Positions 48,583 to 62,032 of a stretch of DNA of 64,000 nt are shown here, piece after piece. Below the pieces are notes generated by a model. It had not been told where the DNA came from. It worked only from the letters and a program-made list of their open reading frames with translations, and did not search any database. The DNA is taken from assembly GCA_028716665.1 (NCBI GenBank), contig JAQUPP010000001.1:128467-192466 (forward strand), written 5' to 3'. Made by a program: the position numbers and the translations under genes. The DNA is from Patescibacteria group bacterium (GTDB lineage Bacteria > Patescibacteriota > Patescibacteriia > UBA2591 > JAQUPP01). The stretch's first letter is position 1. Each line of letters starts with the position of its first letter.

Positions 48583-51465
48583 CATTTTCTGCGCCACATA
48601 ACAAAAAAGAAAATTATCATCCCCGTTTTATTCGGGTTGATTTTGGTTATGTCTTTCTGCGCTTTTTCACCGGCTAAAGCGGAAATGTCAGACATGGGCA
48701 AAACGGTAATGACGATTTTGGGTTGGCCGATTATGGGACTGGTAAGTTTACTCGGGAAATTATTGGTCGTTATTATCCGGCTTTTGGTTTGGATCGCTCA
48801 ATATAATGATTTCATAAATTCACCGGCGGTTTCCAAAGGATGGATTATCATCAGAGACATCTGCAATATGTCTTTCATCTTGGCTCTTTTAATAATCGCT
48901 TTTTGCACGGTTTTAAAAATTGAACAATATTCTTACAAAAAACTTTTGGGACAATTGGTTTTGGCGGCAGTTTTGGTTAACTTTTCCAAATTTATTTGCG
49001 GATTTTTGATTGATATTTCACAAATTATAATGTTGACTTTTGTCAACGCTTTCAAGTCAGCGGCTGAAGGAAATTTTGCTCAGATGTTGGGACTGACAAA
49101 AATAATGGAAATGAGGAATAGTATCGGCGGAGCGGATATTAATACAAATGAACTTTTTGGAGCCATGGTTTTGGGGTTGATTATGACTATTGTCGCCTTG
49201 ATAGTGGTTGGTATCATGACTGTGATTTTAGCAATGAGAATTGTGACAATTTGGTTTTTGGTTCTTTTCTCACCTTTAATTTTTGTGGCCCCTCTCTTTC
49301 CAAAGGGCCAGGGTTATGCTGTTAAATGGTGGGAAAAATTTTCCAATAATTTGATTGCCGGACCGGCTATGGCTTTTATGCTTTGGTTGTCATTGGCGGT
49401 TGTCCAAGAAACAGGACCGACAATGTATGAAACAATGGTTACTCCCGACACTGTTAAATCTCTTCAATCGGAAGGTTTAGGAGGAACAGCAGGGGGGACC
49501 GGTTTATCTGTAGCTATTTCCGAAACAGGTCAGCCGCAATATATGCTTAATTTTATAATCGGCATTGCGATGTTGATCGGTTCTTTAATGGTTGCTCAGC
49601 AAATGGCTGTCGCCGGAGCATCAATTGCCACTCAAGGAATTAAAAAAATGCAAGGATTCGCCACAGGTGCGGCCAAGATGCCGTTTAAGGGAGCGGCTGC
49701 AACTGCGCGTTTTATGGGTATTCCCCAAAAAGCTGAAGCCTTGGGCGGACGAGCTTTAAGAATAATAGGGGCTGCTCCAGATCAAAGACAAGCAAGAAAA
49801 ATAAGACAAGATTCTAAAATTAAGGAAAGATGGGGTGGTCAGAAAGGTGCTATAGCATTAGGGGAACAACAGATTAAATATTCGCGCCGTAAAAAAATTG
49901 AAGAGCAGGTTGGGTCATTTAGTTCTATGGATGATAAACGAATAAAATATTTAGAAGGGGTAACAGGAGATAGGATAGGAAAACAGGTTTATCAAGAAGA
50001 ATTAGCCAGGAGAGGAGGCTTAAGGCCAAAAGATATTAAAGATCGTCTCAGCAGGGTTGGTAATCTAAGAGGAGGAGATCAACAAAATGAACTTATAAAT
50101 ATAGCCAGTTTAGCCAGTTTACAGGGTGGGACAAGTAAAGAATATTTTGATTATTCGCAGGAGGTTAACCCTCAAACTGGTCGATATCAATCAAGGGCAG
50201 GGGTAATAAGTAGAGGAAAAGAATTAAAGAAAATTAAAGAAAAGTATAGCAAATATACTCCTTATGATATAAATAAGTTGGGGAAAGATGATTTTGATGT
50301 TAAACAATTTGGTAGTGTTACAGCTACTAAAGTTTTGAGTTTTGCTAATAACCAGATTGCTAATTCTAAGATAGCGCCGGCGCAGCAAGAAGAAATTATT
50401 AAACAACTAGAGATAATGAGAAATGCCAGGGGTAACTCGGGGGCATTAAATGCATTAAGGATCAGCAATAGTCAAGCTGAAGAAGCTGATCAGAAAATAC
50501 AAGATTTATCAATTGCGGGAGTGGTATCTGCGCAAAGACTTTGGATGCCGCCGCCACCACCGCCGCCGCCGCCACCGCCGCCGCCGCCACCAACATATAG
50601 TATGCCTGGGATATCCCGTTATGGAAATTCATTATCAGGAAAAACAGGAACGCCACCGCCTTCAACAGGGACTCCCCCGCCACCAGGAACGCCACCGTCA
50701 CCTTCAGCAGGAGGGCCACAATTACCGCCTTCGCCACCAGTGGCAGGAGGGCATTTGGGATCAGGACATCCGCCTCCACCATCATCAACTGGAACTCCAT
50801 CGCCTTCAATGGGGACTCCTGTACCACCAGGAACGCCACCGTCACCTTCAGGGTGGGCGGCTACTGAATGGTCTACTCCACCTTCGACCGCGGGAGGGAC
50901 ACAACTAAATAGGATGCATATACAAGTTCTTAATGAGTTAAGAAAAGATATTAATAAAGTTAAGAATGCAATAGATATTCTAAACCAAACTGAAATTTCT
51001 ACTTCAAAAAAAATAGTGGGAGGAATTAGAGAAATTAAACCGGGAGAGAAAGTGAATGTTTCAAAGACTCCAGGAAAAATGGAGAATGATTGGCGTTTTT
51101 CTCATGTTGACCCGAGAGATGGCATGGCTGTAGTTACAAAAGATCAAGCGCCGGGAGAAATTAAAAACACGCAAATAACATCTGAAAAAGTTAGCCTCCA
51201 AGATCTTAATGATTGGCAGAAAAAAACAGAAAGAGAAACGGAGAATGAAAAAATTAAAGACACACTGGGAAATTTGCAACATATTATTAGTGAGGCAATA
51301 AAAGTAAAACCGGATGATTCGTTCGCAAAAGATTTAGATGACAGGCTTGCTAAATTAGGAGCTGAAACAGAGAATGCGAAGGAAGAAAATTATGGTGCAC
51401 TACCGGCAAAATGGTTAACTGACGATATCCATAAACTCGCAGATGATATAAATAAGCAACTTTAG
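48583..51465 (+). CDS. VirB6/TrbL-like polytopic membrane protein with a poly-Pro/Pro-rich tail and a coiled-coil C-terminus
   Basis: A signal peptide and periplasmic segment precede at least six TM segments, which are followed by P15 and TPPP repeats. The architecture is typical of large T4SS VirB6 analogs. Confidence 0.4.
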   Translation, partial: HFLRHITKKKIIIPVLFGLILVMSFCAFSPAKAEMSDMGKTVMTILGWPIMGLVSLLGKLLVVIIRLLVWIAQYNDFINSPAVSKGWIIIRDICNMSFILALLIIAFCTVLKIEQYSYKKLLGQLVLAAVLVNFSKFICGFLIDISQIIMLTFVNAFKSAAEGNFAQMLGLTKIMEMRNSIGGADINTNELFGAMVLGLIMTIVALIVVGIMTVILAMRIVTIWFLVLFSPLIFVAPLFPKGQGYAVKWWEKFSNNLIAGPAMAFMLWLSLAVVQETGPTMYETMVTPDTVKSLQSEGLGGTAGGTGLSVAISETGQPQYMLNFIIGIAMLIGSLMVAQQMAVAGASIATQGIKKMQGFATGAAKMPFKGAAATARFMGIPQKAEALGGRALRIIGAAPDQRQARKIRQDSKIKERWGGQKGAIALGEQQIKYSRRKKIEEQVGSFSSMDDKRIKYLEGVTGDRIGKQVYQEELARRGGLRPKDIKDRLSRVGNLRGGDQQNELINIASLASLQGGTSKEYFDYSQEVNPQTGRYQSRAGVISRGKELKKIKEKYSKYTPYDINKLGKDDFDVKQFGSVTATKVLSFANNQIANSKIAPAQQEEIIKQLEIMRNARGNSGALNALRISNSQAEEADQKIQDLSIAGVVSAQRLWMPPPPPPPPPPPPPPPTYSMPGISRYGNSLSGKTGTPPPSTGTPPPPGTPPSPSAGGPQLPPSPPVAGGHLGSGHPPPPSSTGTPSPSMGTPVPPGTPPSPSGWAATEWSTPPSTAGGTQLNRMHIQVLNELRKDINKVKNAIDILNQTEISTSKKIVGGIREIKPGEKVNVSKTPGKMENDWRFSHVDPRDGMAVVTKDQAPGEIKNTQITSEKVSLQDLNDWQKKTERETENEKIKDTLGNLQHIISEAIKVKPDDSFAKDLDDRLAKLGAETENAKEENYGALPAKWLTDDIHKLADDINKQL
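50546..50593 (+). repeat. (CCN)n low-complexity tract encoding poly-proline
   Basis: The sequence gccgccgccaccaccgccgccgcc... is seen directly. Confidence 0.7.
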
Positions 51466-51473
51466 TTTGAATT

Positions 51474-60808: not shown

Positions 60809-60847
60809 GTAAATAGGCAAATAAGCTAACTAAGTAAATAAGTTGAA

Positions 60848-62032
60848 ATGAAAATTCAAAATTCCAAATTCAAAATTCCAAATTCTTTACTTATAATCGC
60901 CTTAATGGCGTTTTTTTGGTTTTGGGCCGGTCAGCAAGTTTCGGCTGCCTGTATCCCGCTTGGCGGAACAGATCAGCGCCCGGAAGGTTGTAATGGCAAT
61001 CCTTGTTGTCCCGGTTCTAATTGCCAAGCCACGCCACTTTTTGGAGATTCTCAAGGTTCGAACACAATGTTTCAAATTAATTGTTGGAATATTAGTGAAG
61101 GCGTAATGCCTATTACCGGTATAGAAACTGACACTCAAGAATCAAAATCAATAATTGCTCCGCAATTGCAAGTTCAAATTCCAGGTTTTCAAGGATTTAC
61201 CACTGATGAAAGTAAAATCGTGACTGAGCAAAATGGCAAAAAAAGTTATTCCTTTCCATGGATTGGCGAATATCTTATAGCTCTTTATAAATGGGCGATC
61301 AGATTAATCGCCGCTTTGGCCGTGGTGATGATTATGTGGGCCGGGGTGGAATGGATGATTGCCGGAGGCAATAGCAGTCGGATTTCCGATGCCAAAGGAA
61401 GAATCACTGGTGCTTTATTCGGGCTGGTTTTATTATTAGGCATTAATACTTTTTTAAATTTTATAAATCCGCAGTTAACTTTTTTCAAGCCGATTCATCT
61501 GGGAGAAATTGCAAAAATTGAGCTTGATGCAGAAGAAATAGATTATCCGATTGTTTTGGAAGGACAGACAGACTCGGATTGGTGGAGATTTAACCCGGGA
61601 ATTACCAAACAAATACCTGATATGTCGCCCCAATTAGCCAGTTTTACAGATTGTCTTGGTAAAAAAATCGTTGGTTCGGATAATAAACCAAAAGCGGTAA
61701 TTACCAGTATTTCCGATGATGCAGGCGTGGAAAGATGTAGAAATGCCTGGCAAAAAAAGGATTGTCGAGAAGAAAATGATCCTAATTGTTATTCTTGTCA
61801 TCATACTAAAAATTCTTGTCATTATGGAGGCAAGGAGTGTCCAGCTCAATCTTATGCCATAGATATTGGTATAACCACCAGTCCTTCGCCAACGGAAATA
61901 ATCAACGCGATTAAAGAGTGTAACCCGAACGCTTATATTTGTTATACTCCTTATAATAACTGCCCGGGTCATACAAATCATATTCATACCAGTATTGGTT
62001 GGGACTCCGGTTGTAAATGCGATAAAAAATAA
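60848..62032 (+). CDS. Paralogous secreted protein: Cys-rich N-terminal region, VirB2/TrbC-like hairpin, Cys-rich C-terminal domain
   Basis: YKWAIRLIAALAVVMIMWAGVEWMIAGGNSSRISDAKGRITGALFGLVLLLG aligns with the 58222 protein. Confidence 0.45.
   Translation: MKIQNSKFKIPNSLLIIALMAFFWFWAGQQVSAACIPLGGTDQRPEGCNGNPCCPGSNCQATPLFGDSQGSNTMFQINCWNISEGVMPITGIETDTQESKSIIAPQLQVQIPGFQGFTTDESKIVTEQNGKKSYSFPWIGEYLIALYKWAIRLIAALAVVMIMWAGVEWMIAGGNSSRISDAKGRITGALFGLVLLLGINTFLNFINPQLTFFKPIHLGEIAKIELDAEEIDYPIVLEGQTDSDWWRFNPGITKQIPDMSPQLASFTDCLGKKIVGSDNKPKAVITSISDDAGVERCRNAWQKKDCREENDPNCYSCHHTKNSCHYGGKECPAQSYAIDIGITTSPSPTEIINAIKECNPNAYICYTPYNNCPGHTNHIHTSIGWDSGCKCDKK
60852..60886 (+). repeat. Heptanucleotide tract (AAATTCA/AAATTCC)x4 plus AAATTCT, starting 2 nt after the start codon of the pilin-like gene
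   Basis: Five tandem 7-nt units are seen directly. Confidence 0.7.

What the first reader, a model, noticed from the sequence alone, without database searches (positions are those of the whole stretch)
48583..62032. Type-IV-secretion-like locus with unusual components and no relaxase or coupling protein in view
Within 13 kb, all co-directional, lie: a large VirB6/TrbL-like polytopic protein with a poly-Pro tail; a two-TM VirB3-like ORF directly upstream of a VirB4/TrbE-like ATPase (Walker A/B and the C-terminal TQ..D motif); a bitopic VirB8-like ORF; two paralogs carrying a VirB2/TrbC-like pilin hairpin; and a PD40 propeller protein. No VirD4, relaxase or oriT-like element is seen. The locus is flanked by comM and radA, and pilT also lies in the window. 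This could be a conjugation-derived T4SS repurposed for DNA uptake or host/cell contact, a function proposed for such loci in reduced-genome episymbiotic bacteria. The exact component set is not one I can match to a described system.
Basis: partly seen in the sequence, partly recalled or inferred. Interest (0 to 1): 0.8.

Follow-up and report, generated by a model that had tools for sequence, protein, structure and literature searches.

The report
Patescibacterial chromosomal type IV secretion locus
This is a real, well-conserved copy of the non-conjugative type IV secretion system already described in ultra-small Patescibacteria (CPR) bacteria; the one detail I did not find in the papers I read is that its "pilin" proteins carry cell-wall-cutting-type domains.

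The parts
48583..51465 (+). VirB6/TrbL-like polytopic membrane protein. The ORF opens at TTG 48511; ATG 48583 is the likely start. The conserved part is the N-terminal 7-segment membrane domain. It is followed by a basic, Cys-free, probably cytoplasmic tail with a poly-Pro tract and a C-terminal domain.
   Evidence: Hydropathy; translation; NCBIfam MMCAP2_0566 E 0.0019; 3 of 33 orthologues hit Pfam TrbL, best E 3.3e-6; conserved position in 46 loci. No PDB sequence match.
51474..53375 (+). Conserved 633-aa protein of unknown function. It has no TM segment and no Cys, so it is probably cytoplasmic. It has helical N- and C-terminal domains joined by a Pro/Glu/Lys-rich linker, and it always lies between the VirB6-like and VirB3-like genes.
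   Evidence: Present in 71 of 80 loci in the same position. No Pfam, NCBIfam or PDB match.
53399..53770 (+). Four-helix-bundle protein gene (PF05635 / TIGR02436). It looks like an inserted cassette, not a T4SS core part.
   Evidence: Pfam E 3e-18; TIGR02436 E 2.7e-23. It sits at varying intergenic sites in 7 related loci. Its flank sequences recur without the gene at 55000-55138 and 57651-57744.
53829..54260 (+). VirB3/PrgI-like small membrane protein.
   Evidence: PrgI E 5.7e-5, below cutoff; TcpE E 0.02. Hydrophobic stretch at residues 23-67. Found in 73 of 80 loci directly before the TrsD-like gene.
54332..54997 (+). TrsD-like protein, which is the N-terminal domain of VirB4 encoded as a separate polypeptide.
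   Evidence: NCBIfam TrsD/TraD E 5.9e-10. It matches positions 2-152 of the CD1110 VirB4 model, 103-264 of VirB4_plasma and 5-183 of VirB4_CagE, which is complementary to what the next ORF matches. Three tandem stop codons and a 141-nt gap follow it. It is a separate gene in 78 of 80 loci.
55139..57076 (+). VirB4 ATPase, the C-terminal two-thirds of a canonical VirB4.
   Evidence: conju_CD1110 E 2.2e-102, above cutoff, matching model positions 176-730. P-loop_TraG E 1.5e-28. More than 8000 homologues; the best 120 are 65-100% identical and mostly 610-670 aa, and every source name that gives a phylum is Patescibacteria or Parcubacteria.
57091..57651 (+). VirB8-like bitopic protein: N-terminal TM helix, disordered linker, NTF2-like domain.
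57749..58204 (+). Small membrane protein (151 aa) with 2-3 TM segments. Function unknown; fast-evolving.
   Evidence: Hydropathy. Recognisable in only 7 close loci.
58222..59493 (+). VirB2-like hairpin protein 1: signal peptide, two-TM hairpin, then a roughly 290-aa extracellular Cys-rich domain (20 Cys) with no detectable homology.
   Evidence: T4SS_pilin E 2.4e-6, above cutoff. Mycoplasma ICE pilin-like family NF045849 E 1.4e-6. Hydropathy and Cys counts. No PDB match.
59510..60808 (+). Membrane-anchored beta-propeller protein. MAG annotations call the start at 59528.
   Evidence: PD40 E 0.041; TolB E 9.2e-5. The orthologue profile hits almost only beta-propellers in the PDB, best E 3.1e-6. 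N-terminal TM segment. Lies next to pilin-like genes in 26 loci.
60848..62032 (+). VirB2-like hairpin protein 2: signal peptide, N-terminal Cys-rich region, hairpin (residues 142-208), then a C-terminal Cys-rich domain with the invariant motif S-x-H-Y-G ... A-x-D ... H-x-H. This is a Hedgehog/DD-peptidase (LAS zinc hydrolase)-like pattern, so it is a putative cell-wall peptidase.
   Evidence: T4SS_pilin E 3.2e-8. Motif at residues 323-380. The domain profile hits only Hedgehog N-domains in the PDB (E 0.07-0.7), aligned on the zinc ligands. Orthologues carry VanY, M23 or SLT domains in the same place.
62041..63429 (+). radA (DNA repair/recombination helicase), a conserved downstream neighbour that is probably co-transcribed.
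   Evidence: TIGR00416 E 2.8e-169, above cutoff. 9-nt gap. Within 8 kb downstream of VirB4 in 50 of 65 loci, on the same strand in 42.

Best explanation
The locus is the chromosomal, non-conjugative type IV secretion system typical of Patescibacteria (CPR). It descends from the monoderm MPF_FATA conjugation machinery and has the gene arrangement seen in Falkowbacteria-, Kerfeldbacteria- and Komeilibacteria-type lineages.

Shown here: the parts list and its conservation.
- The likely membrane-embedded components are the VirB6-like polytopic protein, the VirB3/PrgI-like hairpin and the VirB8-like bitopic protein.
- The only ATPase is a VirB4 split into a TrsD-like N-domain protein and a 645-aa ATPase.
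- Two VirB2-like hairpin proteins have large, disulfide-rich extracellular domains. One has a zinc-hydrolase-like motif, and its orthologues carry bona fide peptidoglycan-hydrolase domains.
- A membrane-anchored beta-propeller lies between the two hairpin proteins.

Inferred from established VirB4 and VirB2 biology: the VirB4 hexamer docks on the VirB3/VirB6/VirB8 platform and extracts the hairpin proteins from the membrane. It assembles them into a pilus-like or wall-spanning surface structure that displays the ectodomains. The hydrolase-type ectodomains supply the missing VirB1 function, opening the bacterium's own wall, the host's wall, or both.

By analogy with Southlakia, the structure serves contact with a host cell and is needed for the epibiotic lifestyle. 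What passes through it, and in which direction, is not known.
For: - **VirB4 assignment.** Above the curated cutoff for an MPF_FATA family, with complementary TrsD and VirB4 matches.
- **Other components.** VirB8 fold; T4SS_pilin above cutoff in both paralogues; VirB6 by transitive TrbL hits; PrgI.
- **Synteny.** Gene order conserved in 80 species-level genomes.
- **Homologues.** More than 8000 VirB4 homologues; every source name among the best 120 that gives a phylum is Patescibacteria or Parcubacteria.
- **Not mobile.** No relaxase, T4CP or integrase among the 47 ORFs scanned; the neighbours are housekeeping genes (LeuRS, KsgA, PPDK, EF-P, SSB, PurA) and GC is uniform.
- **Hydrolase domains on pilin-like proteins.** Of 108 closest cluster representatives, 104 have the pilin hairpin. 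About 40 have SLT, M15_4, VanY, 3D, Amidase_2, C39_2, M23, CHAP or lysozyme domains, and 40 have the window-type Hedgehog/DD-peptidase-like domain.
- **Literature.** The same kind of locus is described and is essential for epibiotic growth.
Against: - No experiment exists for this lineage, and no pilus has been seen.
- The hydrolase assignment for the window's own protein rests on a motif and a sub-significant profile match (E 0.07). Pfam finds nothing in single members, hhalign to the VanY-type domain gave 7% probability, and the single-sequence structure prediction failed (pLDDT 44).
- 400-aa "pilins" may not polymerise at all.
- A coupling protein could be encoded elsewhere in the genome. 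PMC12102498 finds T4CP homologues far from virB4 in many genomes.
- The VirB3 and VirB6 assignments are individually weak.
Confidence: 0.8

Rival explanations
1. The machine is a DNA-import system, functionally like H. pylori ComB or the archaeal Ced system. Host or environmental DNA is drawn in through the VirB6/VirB4 channel, and RadA, encoded at the end of the operon, processes it for recombination or salvage.
For: - radA follows the locus with a 9-nt gap. It lies within 8 kb downstream of VirB4 in 50 of 65 loci, on the same strand in 42 and often directly after the VirB8-like gene.
- No T4CP or relaxase was found. This matches ComB, which by my own recall also works without them.
- There are weak VirB4 hits to the CedB and CedD families.
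- PMC12102498 proposes import of DNA or other macromolecules and notes radA/comF/recG linkage in ABY1.
Against: - radA is a universal housekeeping gene, so the adjacency may be inherited synteny. Its orientation flips in 8 loci.
- comM and pilT are 17 and 45 kb away, so they are not linked.
- The CedB match is 45 bits against a cutoff of 700.
- In Southlakia, transformation needs comEC and type IV pili, and a comEC deletion is viable while the T4SS is essential.
Confidence: 0.15
2. The machine exports proteins (effectors, toxins or enzymes) into or onto the host bacterium, like effector-translocating or bacteria-killing T4SSs. The Cys-rich proteins encoded nearby would be its cargo or adhesins.
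For: - Wang et al. favour protein export or an alternative role, because coupling protein and relaxase are missing.
- A 2740-aa Cys-rich secreted protein lies just upstream. A similar giant, co-directional Cys-rich ORF precedes the VirB6-like gene in about 20 of 38 loci.
Against: - Canonical effector translocation needs a T4CP, and none is in the window.
- The nearby Cys-rich proteins have N-terminal signal or anchor sequences, so they probably leave the cytoplasm by Sec, not through the T4SS.
- No effector-like signal or toxin/immunity pair was seen.
Confidence: 0.15
3. The locus is the transfer module of an integrative conjugative element or its decaying remnant, with the relaxase and coupling protein outside the window.
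For: The VirB4 is closest to conjugative MPF_FATA families (CD1110, Mycoplasma ICE). A few Patescibacteria genomes do carry relaxases.
Against: - The same gene order sits in the same housekeeping context (LeuRS/KsgA upstream, radA downstream) in dozens of species.
- All ORFs are intact. GC content is uniform.
- No integrase, relaxase or T4CP was found among the 47 ORFs scanned, and the three tRNA genes are more than 20 kb away.
- VirB4 sequences track taxonomy, with rare inter-class transfer.
Confidence: 0.03

Closest known systems
Patescibacteria-clade T4SS (Southlakia epibionticum ML1 SEML1_0006-0019, Wang et al. 2023, PMC10633639; survey by Quinonero-Coronel et al. 2025, PMC12102498)
   Same: - Chromosomal location, a VirB4 of MPF_FATA ancestry, and an adjacent TrsD homologue.
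- VirB3/PrgI, VirB6 and VirB2-like pilin genes in the cluster.
- No relaxase or T4CP nearby, and a ksgA/radA neighbourhood.
- VirB8 homologues and radA linkage, which the 2025 paper reports for class ABY1.
   Different: - There are only two pilin-like genes, not an array of six, and they are separated by a beta-propeller gene.
- The pilin-like proteins are about 400 aa with large Cys-rich ectodomains.
- Peptidase and lysozyme genes follow virB4 in Southlakia. Here the hydrolase-type domain is fused to a pilin hairpin.
- A conserved 633-aa cytoplasmic protein and a four-helix-bundle cassette are present.
- There are no functional data for this lineage.
Gram-positive conjugative MPF_FATA systems (pGO1/pSK41 trsC-trsD-trsE, pIP501 tra, pCF10 prg, CTn2 CD1110 family)
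   Same: - The VirB3-like, TrsD, VirB4 order.
- A VirB6-like and a VirB8-like (NTF2 fold) protein.
- A monoderm architecture without recognisable VirB7, VirB9 or VirB10.
   Different: No relaxase, T4CP or oriT. It has VirB2-like hairpin proteins, which reviews say Gram-positive systems lack. It is not on a mobile element.
Mycoplasma ICE transfer genes (Mbov_0395 pilin-like, MMCAP2_0566, Mbov_0397 VirB4 families)
   Same: The three neighbouring NCBIfam families match the window's pilin-like 423-aa protein (E 1.4e-6), VirB6-like protein (E 0.0019) and VirB4/TrsD (E 3.9e-76 and 1.2e-10).
   Different: All these matches are below the curated cutoffs. Mycoplasma ICEs are mobile and conjugative.
T4CP-less DNA-uptake systems (H. 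pylori ComB; Sulfolobales Ced)
   Same: A VirB4-type ATPase working without a relaxase or coupling protein, with genomic linkage to recombination functions.
   Different: By my own recall, ComB is a diderm system with VirB7, VirB9 and VirB10, and Ced uses CedA/A1/A2. None of these was found here, and the CedB match is far below cutoff.
Membrane-anchored VirB1-type wall hydrolases of Gram-positive T4SSs (PrgK, TraG of pIP501, CwlT, TcpG)
   Same: A cell-wall hydrolase domain (SLT, CHAP, M23, NlpC/P60, amidase) tethered to the membrane and encoded in the T4SS cluster.
   Different: Here the anchor is a VirB2-type two-helix hairpin that passes the T4SS_pilin model. The window's domain is a divergent Hedgehog/DD-peptidase-like type.

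Membership tests
VirB4-based type IV secretion systems | A VirB4-family ATPase with Walker A and B motifs | tested here: met
   conju_CD1110 343.7 bits against a cutoff of 325; P-loop_TraG E 1.5e-28; Walker A ATSGSGKS and Walker B ILMIDE.
Patescibacteria-clade (MPF_FATA-derived) T4SS | VirB4 groups with Patescibacteria homologues and is nearest to MPF_FATA | tested here: inconclusive
   The best family hits are MPF_FATA types (CD1110, Mycoplasma ICE). 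The best 120 homologues are 65-100% identical, and every source name that gives a phylum is Patescibacteria or Parcubacteria. No phylogenetic tree was built.
Patescibacteria-clade (MPF_FATA-derived) T4SS | TrsD homologue encoded next to virB4 | tested here: met
   NCBIfam TrsD/TraD E 5.9e-10. It lies directly upstream of virB4 and is a separate gene in 78 of 80 loci.
Patescibacteria-clade (MPF_FATA-derived) T4SS | VirB3/PrgI and VirB6 homologues near virB4 | tested here: met
   PrgI E 5.7e-5, below the Pfam cutoff. For VirB6, orthologues hit TrbL at E 3.3e-6 and the protein has a polytopic topology. Each line is weak alone but is supported by conserved position.
Patescibacteria-clade (MPF_FATA-derived) T4SS | VirB2-like pilin genes (PF18895) near virB4 | tested here: met
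   28.0 and 34.0 bits against a cutoff of 26.6.
Patescibacteria-clade (MPF_FATA-derived) T4SS | No relaxase or T4CP near virB4; housekeeping chromosomal context (ksgA, radA) | tested here: met
   47 ORFs of the window were scanned and none is a relaxase, T4CP or integrase. KsgA is at 37656-38522 and RadA at 62041-63429. The rest of the genome was not available.
Conjugative element (ICE or plasmid transfer module) | Relaxase, coupling protein, and integrase or att sites | tested here: not met
   None was found in 64 kb. GC is uniform and the chromosomal synteny is conserved.
VirB8 family | N-terminal TM helix plus an NTF2-like periplasmic/extracellular domain, encoded in a T4SS cluster | tested here: met
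Conjugative VirB2/TraA pilins | Small (about 70-120 aa) processed hairpin subunit that polymerises into a pilus | tested here: inconclusive
   The hairpin matches T4SS_pilin, but the proteins are 423 and 394 aa, and the median among relatives is 388-398 aa, with large ectodomains. Polymerisation cannot be tested with these tools.
LAS zinc peptidases (Hedgehog/DD-peptidase fold, M15-like), for the C-terminal domain of the 394-aa protein | The His...Asp...His-x-His zinc and catalytic motif on the LAS fold | tested here: inconclusive
   The motif is invariant in 26 aligned domains and present in 48 of 48. Twenty-one of the 23 PDB hits, including all of the best, are Hedgehog N-domains aligned on the zinc ligands, but at E 0.07-0.7. 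Pfam on single members found nothing, hhalign to the VanY-type domain gave 7%, and the AF2 single-sequence model is unusable.
DNA-uptake T4SS (ComB or Ced type) | ComB: VirB7/9/10-like envelope core. Ced: CedA/A1/A2 with CedB | tested here: not met
   No such proteins were recognised. The CedB match is 45 bits against a cutoff of 700.

The most novel reading that the evidence does not exclude
Most of the "VirB2-like pilins" of this branch may not be plain pilus subunits. They may instead be carriers of cell-wall hydrolases (M15/VanY, Hedgehog/DD-peptidase-like, M23, SLT, 3D, amidase, CHAP, C39-like) on a VirB2 hairpin. They would then be the missing VirB1 of the Patescibacteria T4SS. They could be mounted by VirB4 on a surface structure that cuts through the host's wall to open a conduit. 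With the tightly linked RadA, that conduit might feed incoming host DNA into recombination or salvage.
Probability: 0.25. Interest if true: 0.6.

Novelty: new member of a known kind. Interest (0 to 1): 0.35.

Why it matters
The T4SS of Patescibacteria is the only T4SS reported to be essential for its owner's growth (PMC12857230), and its cargo is an open question. This window adds no new kind of system. It does give a clean, complete example from an uncultured environmental lineage, with a structure-confirmed VirB8 and a split VirB4. It also points to a testable idea. The apparent lack of VirB1 in these systems may be explained by peptidoglycan-hydrolase domains fused to the pilin-like hairpin proteins. 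If so, wall-cutting activity would sit on the very component thought to reach the host cell.

Tried and rejected
- **Sequence-profile searches of the PDB.** The VirB8-like, VirB6-like and 633-aa proteins gave nothing. Only the structure route worked for VirB8.
- **Single-sequence homology search for the VirB8-like protein.** It returned 5 proteins, so I had to repeat it with an alignment.
- **Single-sequence AF2 of the pilin ectodomain.** It failed at pLDDT 44, so I ran no fold search on it.
- **Other tests of the ectodomain.** hhalign of the window-type ectodomain against the VanY-type ectodomain of the closest relative gave 7% probability. A Pfam scan of 26 ectodomain sequences found no peptidase family. 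Three Cytochrome_CBB3 hits come from a non-conserved CxxCH-like string, and I rejected them because the first Cys is not invariant.
- **In-frame stop between TrsD and VirB4.** I considered and rejected a recoded stop or sequencing frameshift. There are three tandem stops plus further stops, a 141-nt gap, and the split is present in 78 of 80 loci.
- **ICE hypothesis.** Considered and rejected; see the rival explanations.
- **The 767-aa ORF at 21941-24244.** I considered it as a hidden VirD4. It has a signal/anchor sequence, no Walker A motif and a repetitive beta-rich sequence.
- **Promoter and terminator scan.** It is not informative in this AT-rich DNA: 68 sites found against 50 expected.
- **Rfam.** It found only three tRNAs, none near the locus.

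Full report
**1. What is there**

The window is low-GC (0.33-0.40) with no compositional island. Between 48.5 and 63.4 kb, twelve co-directional ORFs are packed with short gaps. In order they are:

| Coordinates | Size | Description |
|---|---|---|
| 48511/48583-51465 | 984 aa (about 960 from the ATG) | Polytopic protein |
| 51474-53375 | 633 aa | Cys-free soluble protein |
| 53399-53770 | 123 aa | Four-helix-bundle protein |
| 53829-54260 | 143 aa | Membrane hairpin protein |
| 54332-54997 | 221 aa | Soluble protein |
| 55139-57076 | 645 aa | ATPase |
| 57091-57651 | 186 aa | Bitopic protein |
| 57749-58204 | 151 aa | Membrane protein |
| 58222-59493 | 423 aa | Hairpin protein |
| 59510-60808 | 432 aa | Bitopic protein |
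| 60848-62032 | 394 aa | Hairpin protein |
| 62041-63429 | 462 aa | radA |

**2. Component tests**

*ATPase.* It is a VirB4.
- NCBIfam conju_CD1110: E 2.2e-102, 343.7 bits (cutoff 325).
- VirB4_plasma: E 3.9e-76.
- TraC-F-type: E 3.4e-54.
- Pfam P-loop_TraG: E 1.5e-28.

The 645-aa protein matches the remainder of those models (176-730, 280-892, 243-729). The canonical VirB4 is therefore encoded in two pieces. The split is genuine:
- Three consecutive stop codons and a 141-nt spacer separate the two pieces.
- MAG annotations call two genes.
- It is a separate gene in 78 of 80 related loci.
- The 120 best VirB4 homologues are mostly 610-670 aa long.

*143-aa protein.* It matches PrgI (E 5.7e-5, just below cutoff) and TcpE. 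It has a 45-residue hydrophobic stretch.

*Polytopic protein.* It has no direct Pfam hit. It weakly matches the Mycoplasma ICE family MMCAP2_0566. Three of 33 orthologues (29-49% identical to it) hit Pfam TrbL/VirB6, best E 3.3e-6. Its long tail after the last membrane segment is basic and Cys-free, so it is probably cytoplasmic.

*Two hairpin proteins.* Both pass the Pfam T4SS_pilin cutoff. They are 45% identical over the hairpin.

*432-aa protein.* It has an N-terminal anchor. Its orthologue profile matches almost only beta-propellers in the PDB, best E 3.1e-6.

**3. Context**

I scanned 47 ORFs across the 64 kb. They include the following, with no relaxase, coupling protein or integrase among them:
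- Core metabolism and translation: PurA, EF-P, SSB, PPDK, spermidine synthase, LeuRS and KsgA.
- A PilT-family ATPase (443 bits) and a ComM/YifB ATPase (616 bits).
- A ParA-like NTPase, glycosyltransferases and a LysM-CHAP hydrolase.

The only large unassigned ORF (767 aa) is a secreted repeat protein without a P-loop. radA does abut the locus.

**4. Relatives**

The exact proteins occur in Patescibacteria MAGs GCA_028713475.1 and GCA_028690995.1.

A scan of one genome per species returned 80 loci. Those with informative names are Falkowbacteria, Kerfeldbacteria, Komeilibacteria, Buchananbacteria, Magasanikbacteria, Uhrbacteria and "Patescibacteria group". To my knowledge these lineages fall in GTDB class ABY1.

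I ran phmmer with the window's proteins against all ORFs of these loci. The order VirB6-like, 633-aa protein, VirB3-like, TrsD, VirB4, VirB8-like is essentially invariant:

| Component | Loci with a hit (of 80) |
|---|---|
| VirB4 | 80 |
| TrsD-like | 78 |
| VirB8-like | 75 |
| VirB3-like | 73 |
| 633-aa protein | 71 |
| VirB6-like | 46 |

Many of the fetched loci are cut short by contig ends, so not every component could be seen in every locus. The pilin-propeller-pilin module lies either between the VirB8-like gene and radA or inverted beyond radA. RadA lies within 8 kb downstream of VirB4 in 50 of 65 loci with enough flank, on the same strand in 42.

**5. Comparison with the literature**

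- Quinonero-Coronel et al. 2025 (PMC12102498) surveyed 3,035 Patescibacteria genomes.
  - Composition: they describe a monophyletic VirB4 clade nested in MPF_FATA, TrsD as the most abundant companion, VirB3/PrgI, VirB6 and VirB2-like pilins (often in arrays).
  - Mobility genes: almost no relaxases, and T4CP homologues rarely near virB4.
  - Context: proximity to dnaA, ksgA and ribosomal genes.
  - Class ABY1 specifically: VirB8 homologues and co-location with comF, recG and radA.
- Wang et al. 2023 (PMC10633639) showed by Tn-seq that the T4SS and its pilin genes are essential for epibiotic growth of Southlakia epibionticum. They noted the lack of coupling and relaxase proteins.
- A 2025 review (PMC12857230) summarises both. 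It adds that comEC deletion abolishes competence but not viability, so the essential role of the T4SS is not ComEC-dependent DNA uptake.

**6. What I did not find described**

The pilin-like proteins here are not small.
- Among the related loci the median length is 388 aa.
- The topology is signal peptide, hairpin, then C-terminal domain. Together with 18-20 cysteines, this places the extra domains outside the cell.

Orthologues of the 394-aa protein carry recognisable wall hydrolases after the hairpin:

| Locus | Domain after the hairpin | E-value |
|---|---|---|
| L005 (closest relative) and L006 | VanY/M15 | about 1.5e-5, at cutoff |
| L037 and L044 | Peptidase_M23 | 2.4e-4 and 2.6e-6 |
| L070 (two hairpins) | SLT | 2.2e-11 |

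An exhaustive search of 1.84 billion cluster representatives found 11,493 relatives at E 1e-3 or better. Of the 108 best, 104 have the T4SS_pilin hairpin. Many have wall-hydrolase domains:

| Domain | Members (of 108) | Best E-value |
|---|---|---|
| Peptidase_C39_2 | 8 | 8.5e-14 |
| Peptidase_M15_4 | 7 | 4e-19 |
| 3D | 7 | 4.1e-10 |
| VanY | 6 | 2.8e-10 |
| SLT | 5 | 2e-20 |
| Amidase_2 | 3 | 3e-17 |
| Peptidase_M15 | 2 | 2.3e-06 |
| Phage lysozyme, M23, CHAP, NlpC/P60 | 1 each | 4.7e-16 (lysozyme) to 5.8e-4 (NlpC/P60) |

Another 40 of the 108 carry the same C-terminal domain as the window's protein. In that domain Ser, His, Tyr, Gly, then Ala-x-Asp, then His-x-His are invariant. A profile of it hits only Hedgehog N-terminal domains in the PDB, apart from two weak unrelated matches. 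Hedgehog N-domains have the Hedgehog/DD-peptidase (LAS) zinc fold. The alignment falls on what, to my knowledge, are the Hedgehog zinc-ligand motifs, but at E 0.07-0.7.

This is suggestive, not proven:
- Pfam sees nothing in single members.
- hhalign to the VanY-type domain is insignificant.
- A single-sequence structure prediction was unusable.

PMC12102498 found VirB1 homologues to be poorly associated with virB4 and concluded that pilus biogenesis may not need VirB1. It does not mention pilin-hydrolase fusions. Such fusions would supply the missing activity.

One further point. The 423-aa protein's hairpin matches the NCBIfam "Mbov_0395 pilin-like conjugal transfer protein" family of Mycoplasma ICEs (E 1.4e-6). 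This hints that VirB2-like hairpins are not foreign to MPF_FATA systems.

**7. Mechanism**

*Shown:* the parts list, the topologies and the conservation.

*Inferred from established T4SS biology:* the VirB4 hexamer, with its detached N-domain, docks on VirB3, VirB6 and VirB8. It dislocates hairpin proteins from the membrane and assembles a surface structure. Hydrolase-type ectodomains open the wall.

*Not known:* whether a pilus forms from 400-aa subunits, what the propeller and the 633-aa protein do, and what is transported.

The conserved, often co-directional radA keeps a DNA-import reading alive, but the Southlakia comEC result and the housekeeping nature of radA weigh against it. I put the identity of the system at about 0.9 and the overall explanation at 0.8. 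I give about 0.15 each to DNA import and effector export as the primary role, and 0.03 to an ICE.

**8. Verdict**

The locus is a new member of a known kind. Interest is moderate to low for the finding as stated, with one testable new angle: the hairpin-hydrolase fusions.

Noticed in passing
window 60848-62032; loci L005:15941-17185, L006:8589-9917, L037:17552-19126(-), L044:19785-21170(-), L070:19274-21118(-): T4SS_pilin (VirB2-like) hairpins are fused to cell-wall hydrolase domains (VanY/M15, M15_4, M23, SLT, 3D, Amidase_2, CHAP, C39-like). The window's copy has a Hedgehog/DD-peptidase-like Cys-rich domain. About three-quarters of the 108 closest cluster representatives carry one or the other. 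I did not find this described in the papers I read.
   Followed up: yes
window 53375-53821, 55000-55138, 57651-57744: The four-helix-bundle gene (PF05635/TIGR02436) behaves like a small mobile cassette.
- Its 5' flank plus first 28 nt, and its 3' flank, recur without the gene in the TrsD-VirB4 gap (90% and 86% identity) and the VirB8-p151 gap. The flanks are partly inverted repeats of each other.
- Related loci carry such genes at different intergenic sites of the operon.
- Two MAG assemblies break their contigs right here.
   Followed up: partly
window 37956-37990 (ksgA), 60851-60885 (start of the 394-aa pilin-like gene), 62392-62420 (radA): Tandem heptanucleotide repeats (AAATTCC/AAATTCA, 4-5 copies) lie inside coding regions and are read as KFQIPNS-like peptides. 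There are 7 matches against 0.09 expected. The copy at codons 2-13 of the surface protein could in principle allow slipped-strand phase variation. Many other 7-8-nt repeats fill the intergenic spacers.
   Followed up: no
window 39288-47510: A 2740-aa secreted or anchored protein with 118 cysteines and no family match except a weak CBM_4_9 hit. A giant, Cys-rich, co-directional ORF also precedes the VirB6-like gene in about 20 of 38 related loci. It may be an adhesin or surface partner of the system.
   Followed up: partly
window 47601-48485 (- strand): A protein with a T9SS type A C-terminal sorting domain (TIGR04183, 36.8 bits against a cutoff of 23; Pfam Por_Secre_tail E 6e-7). This is unexpected in a bacterium thought to lack an outer membrane and a T9SS.
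   Followed up: no
window 51474-53375: A 633-aa Cys-free, probably cytoplasmic protein is conserved between the VirB6-like and VirB3-like genes in 71 of 80 loci. It has no detectable homology to any Pfam, NCBIfam or PDB entry. It is an uncharacterised core component of this T4SS variant.
   Followed up: partly
window 58222-59493, 48511-51465 and 54332-57076: Three neighbouring NCBIfam families of Mycoplasma ICEs match the window's proteins. They are Mbov_0395 pilin-like, MMCAP2_0566 and Mbov_0397 VirB4. This suggests that VirB2-like hairpins already exist in MPF_FATA elements of Tenericutes, contrary to the usual statement that monoderm T4SSs lack VirB2.
   Followed up: no
window 33661-34902 (- strand): A LysM + CHAP peptidoglycan hydrolase lies 14 kb upstream of the locus. 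It is a conventional VirB1-type candidate but is not linked to the operon.
   Followed up: no
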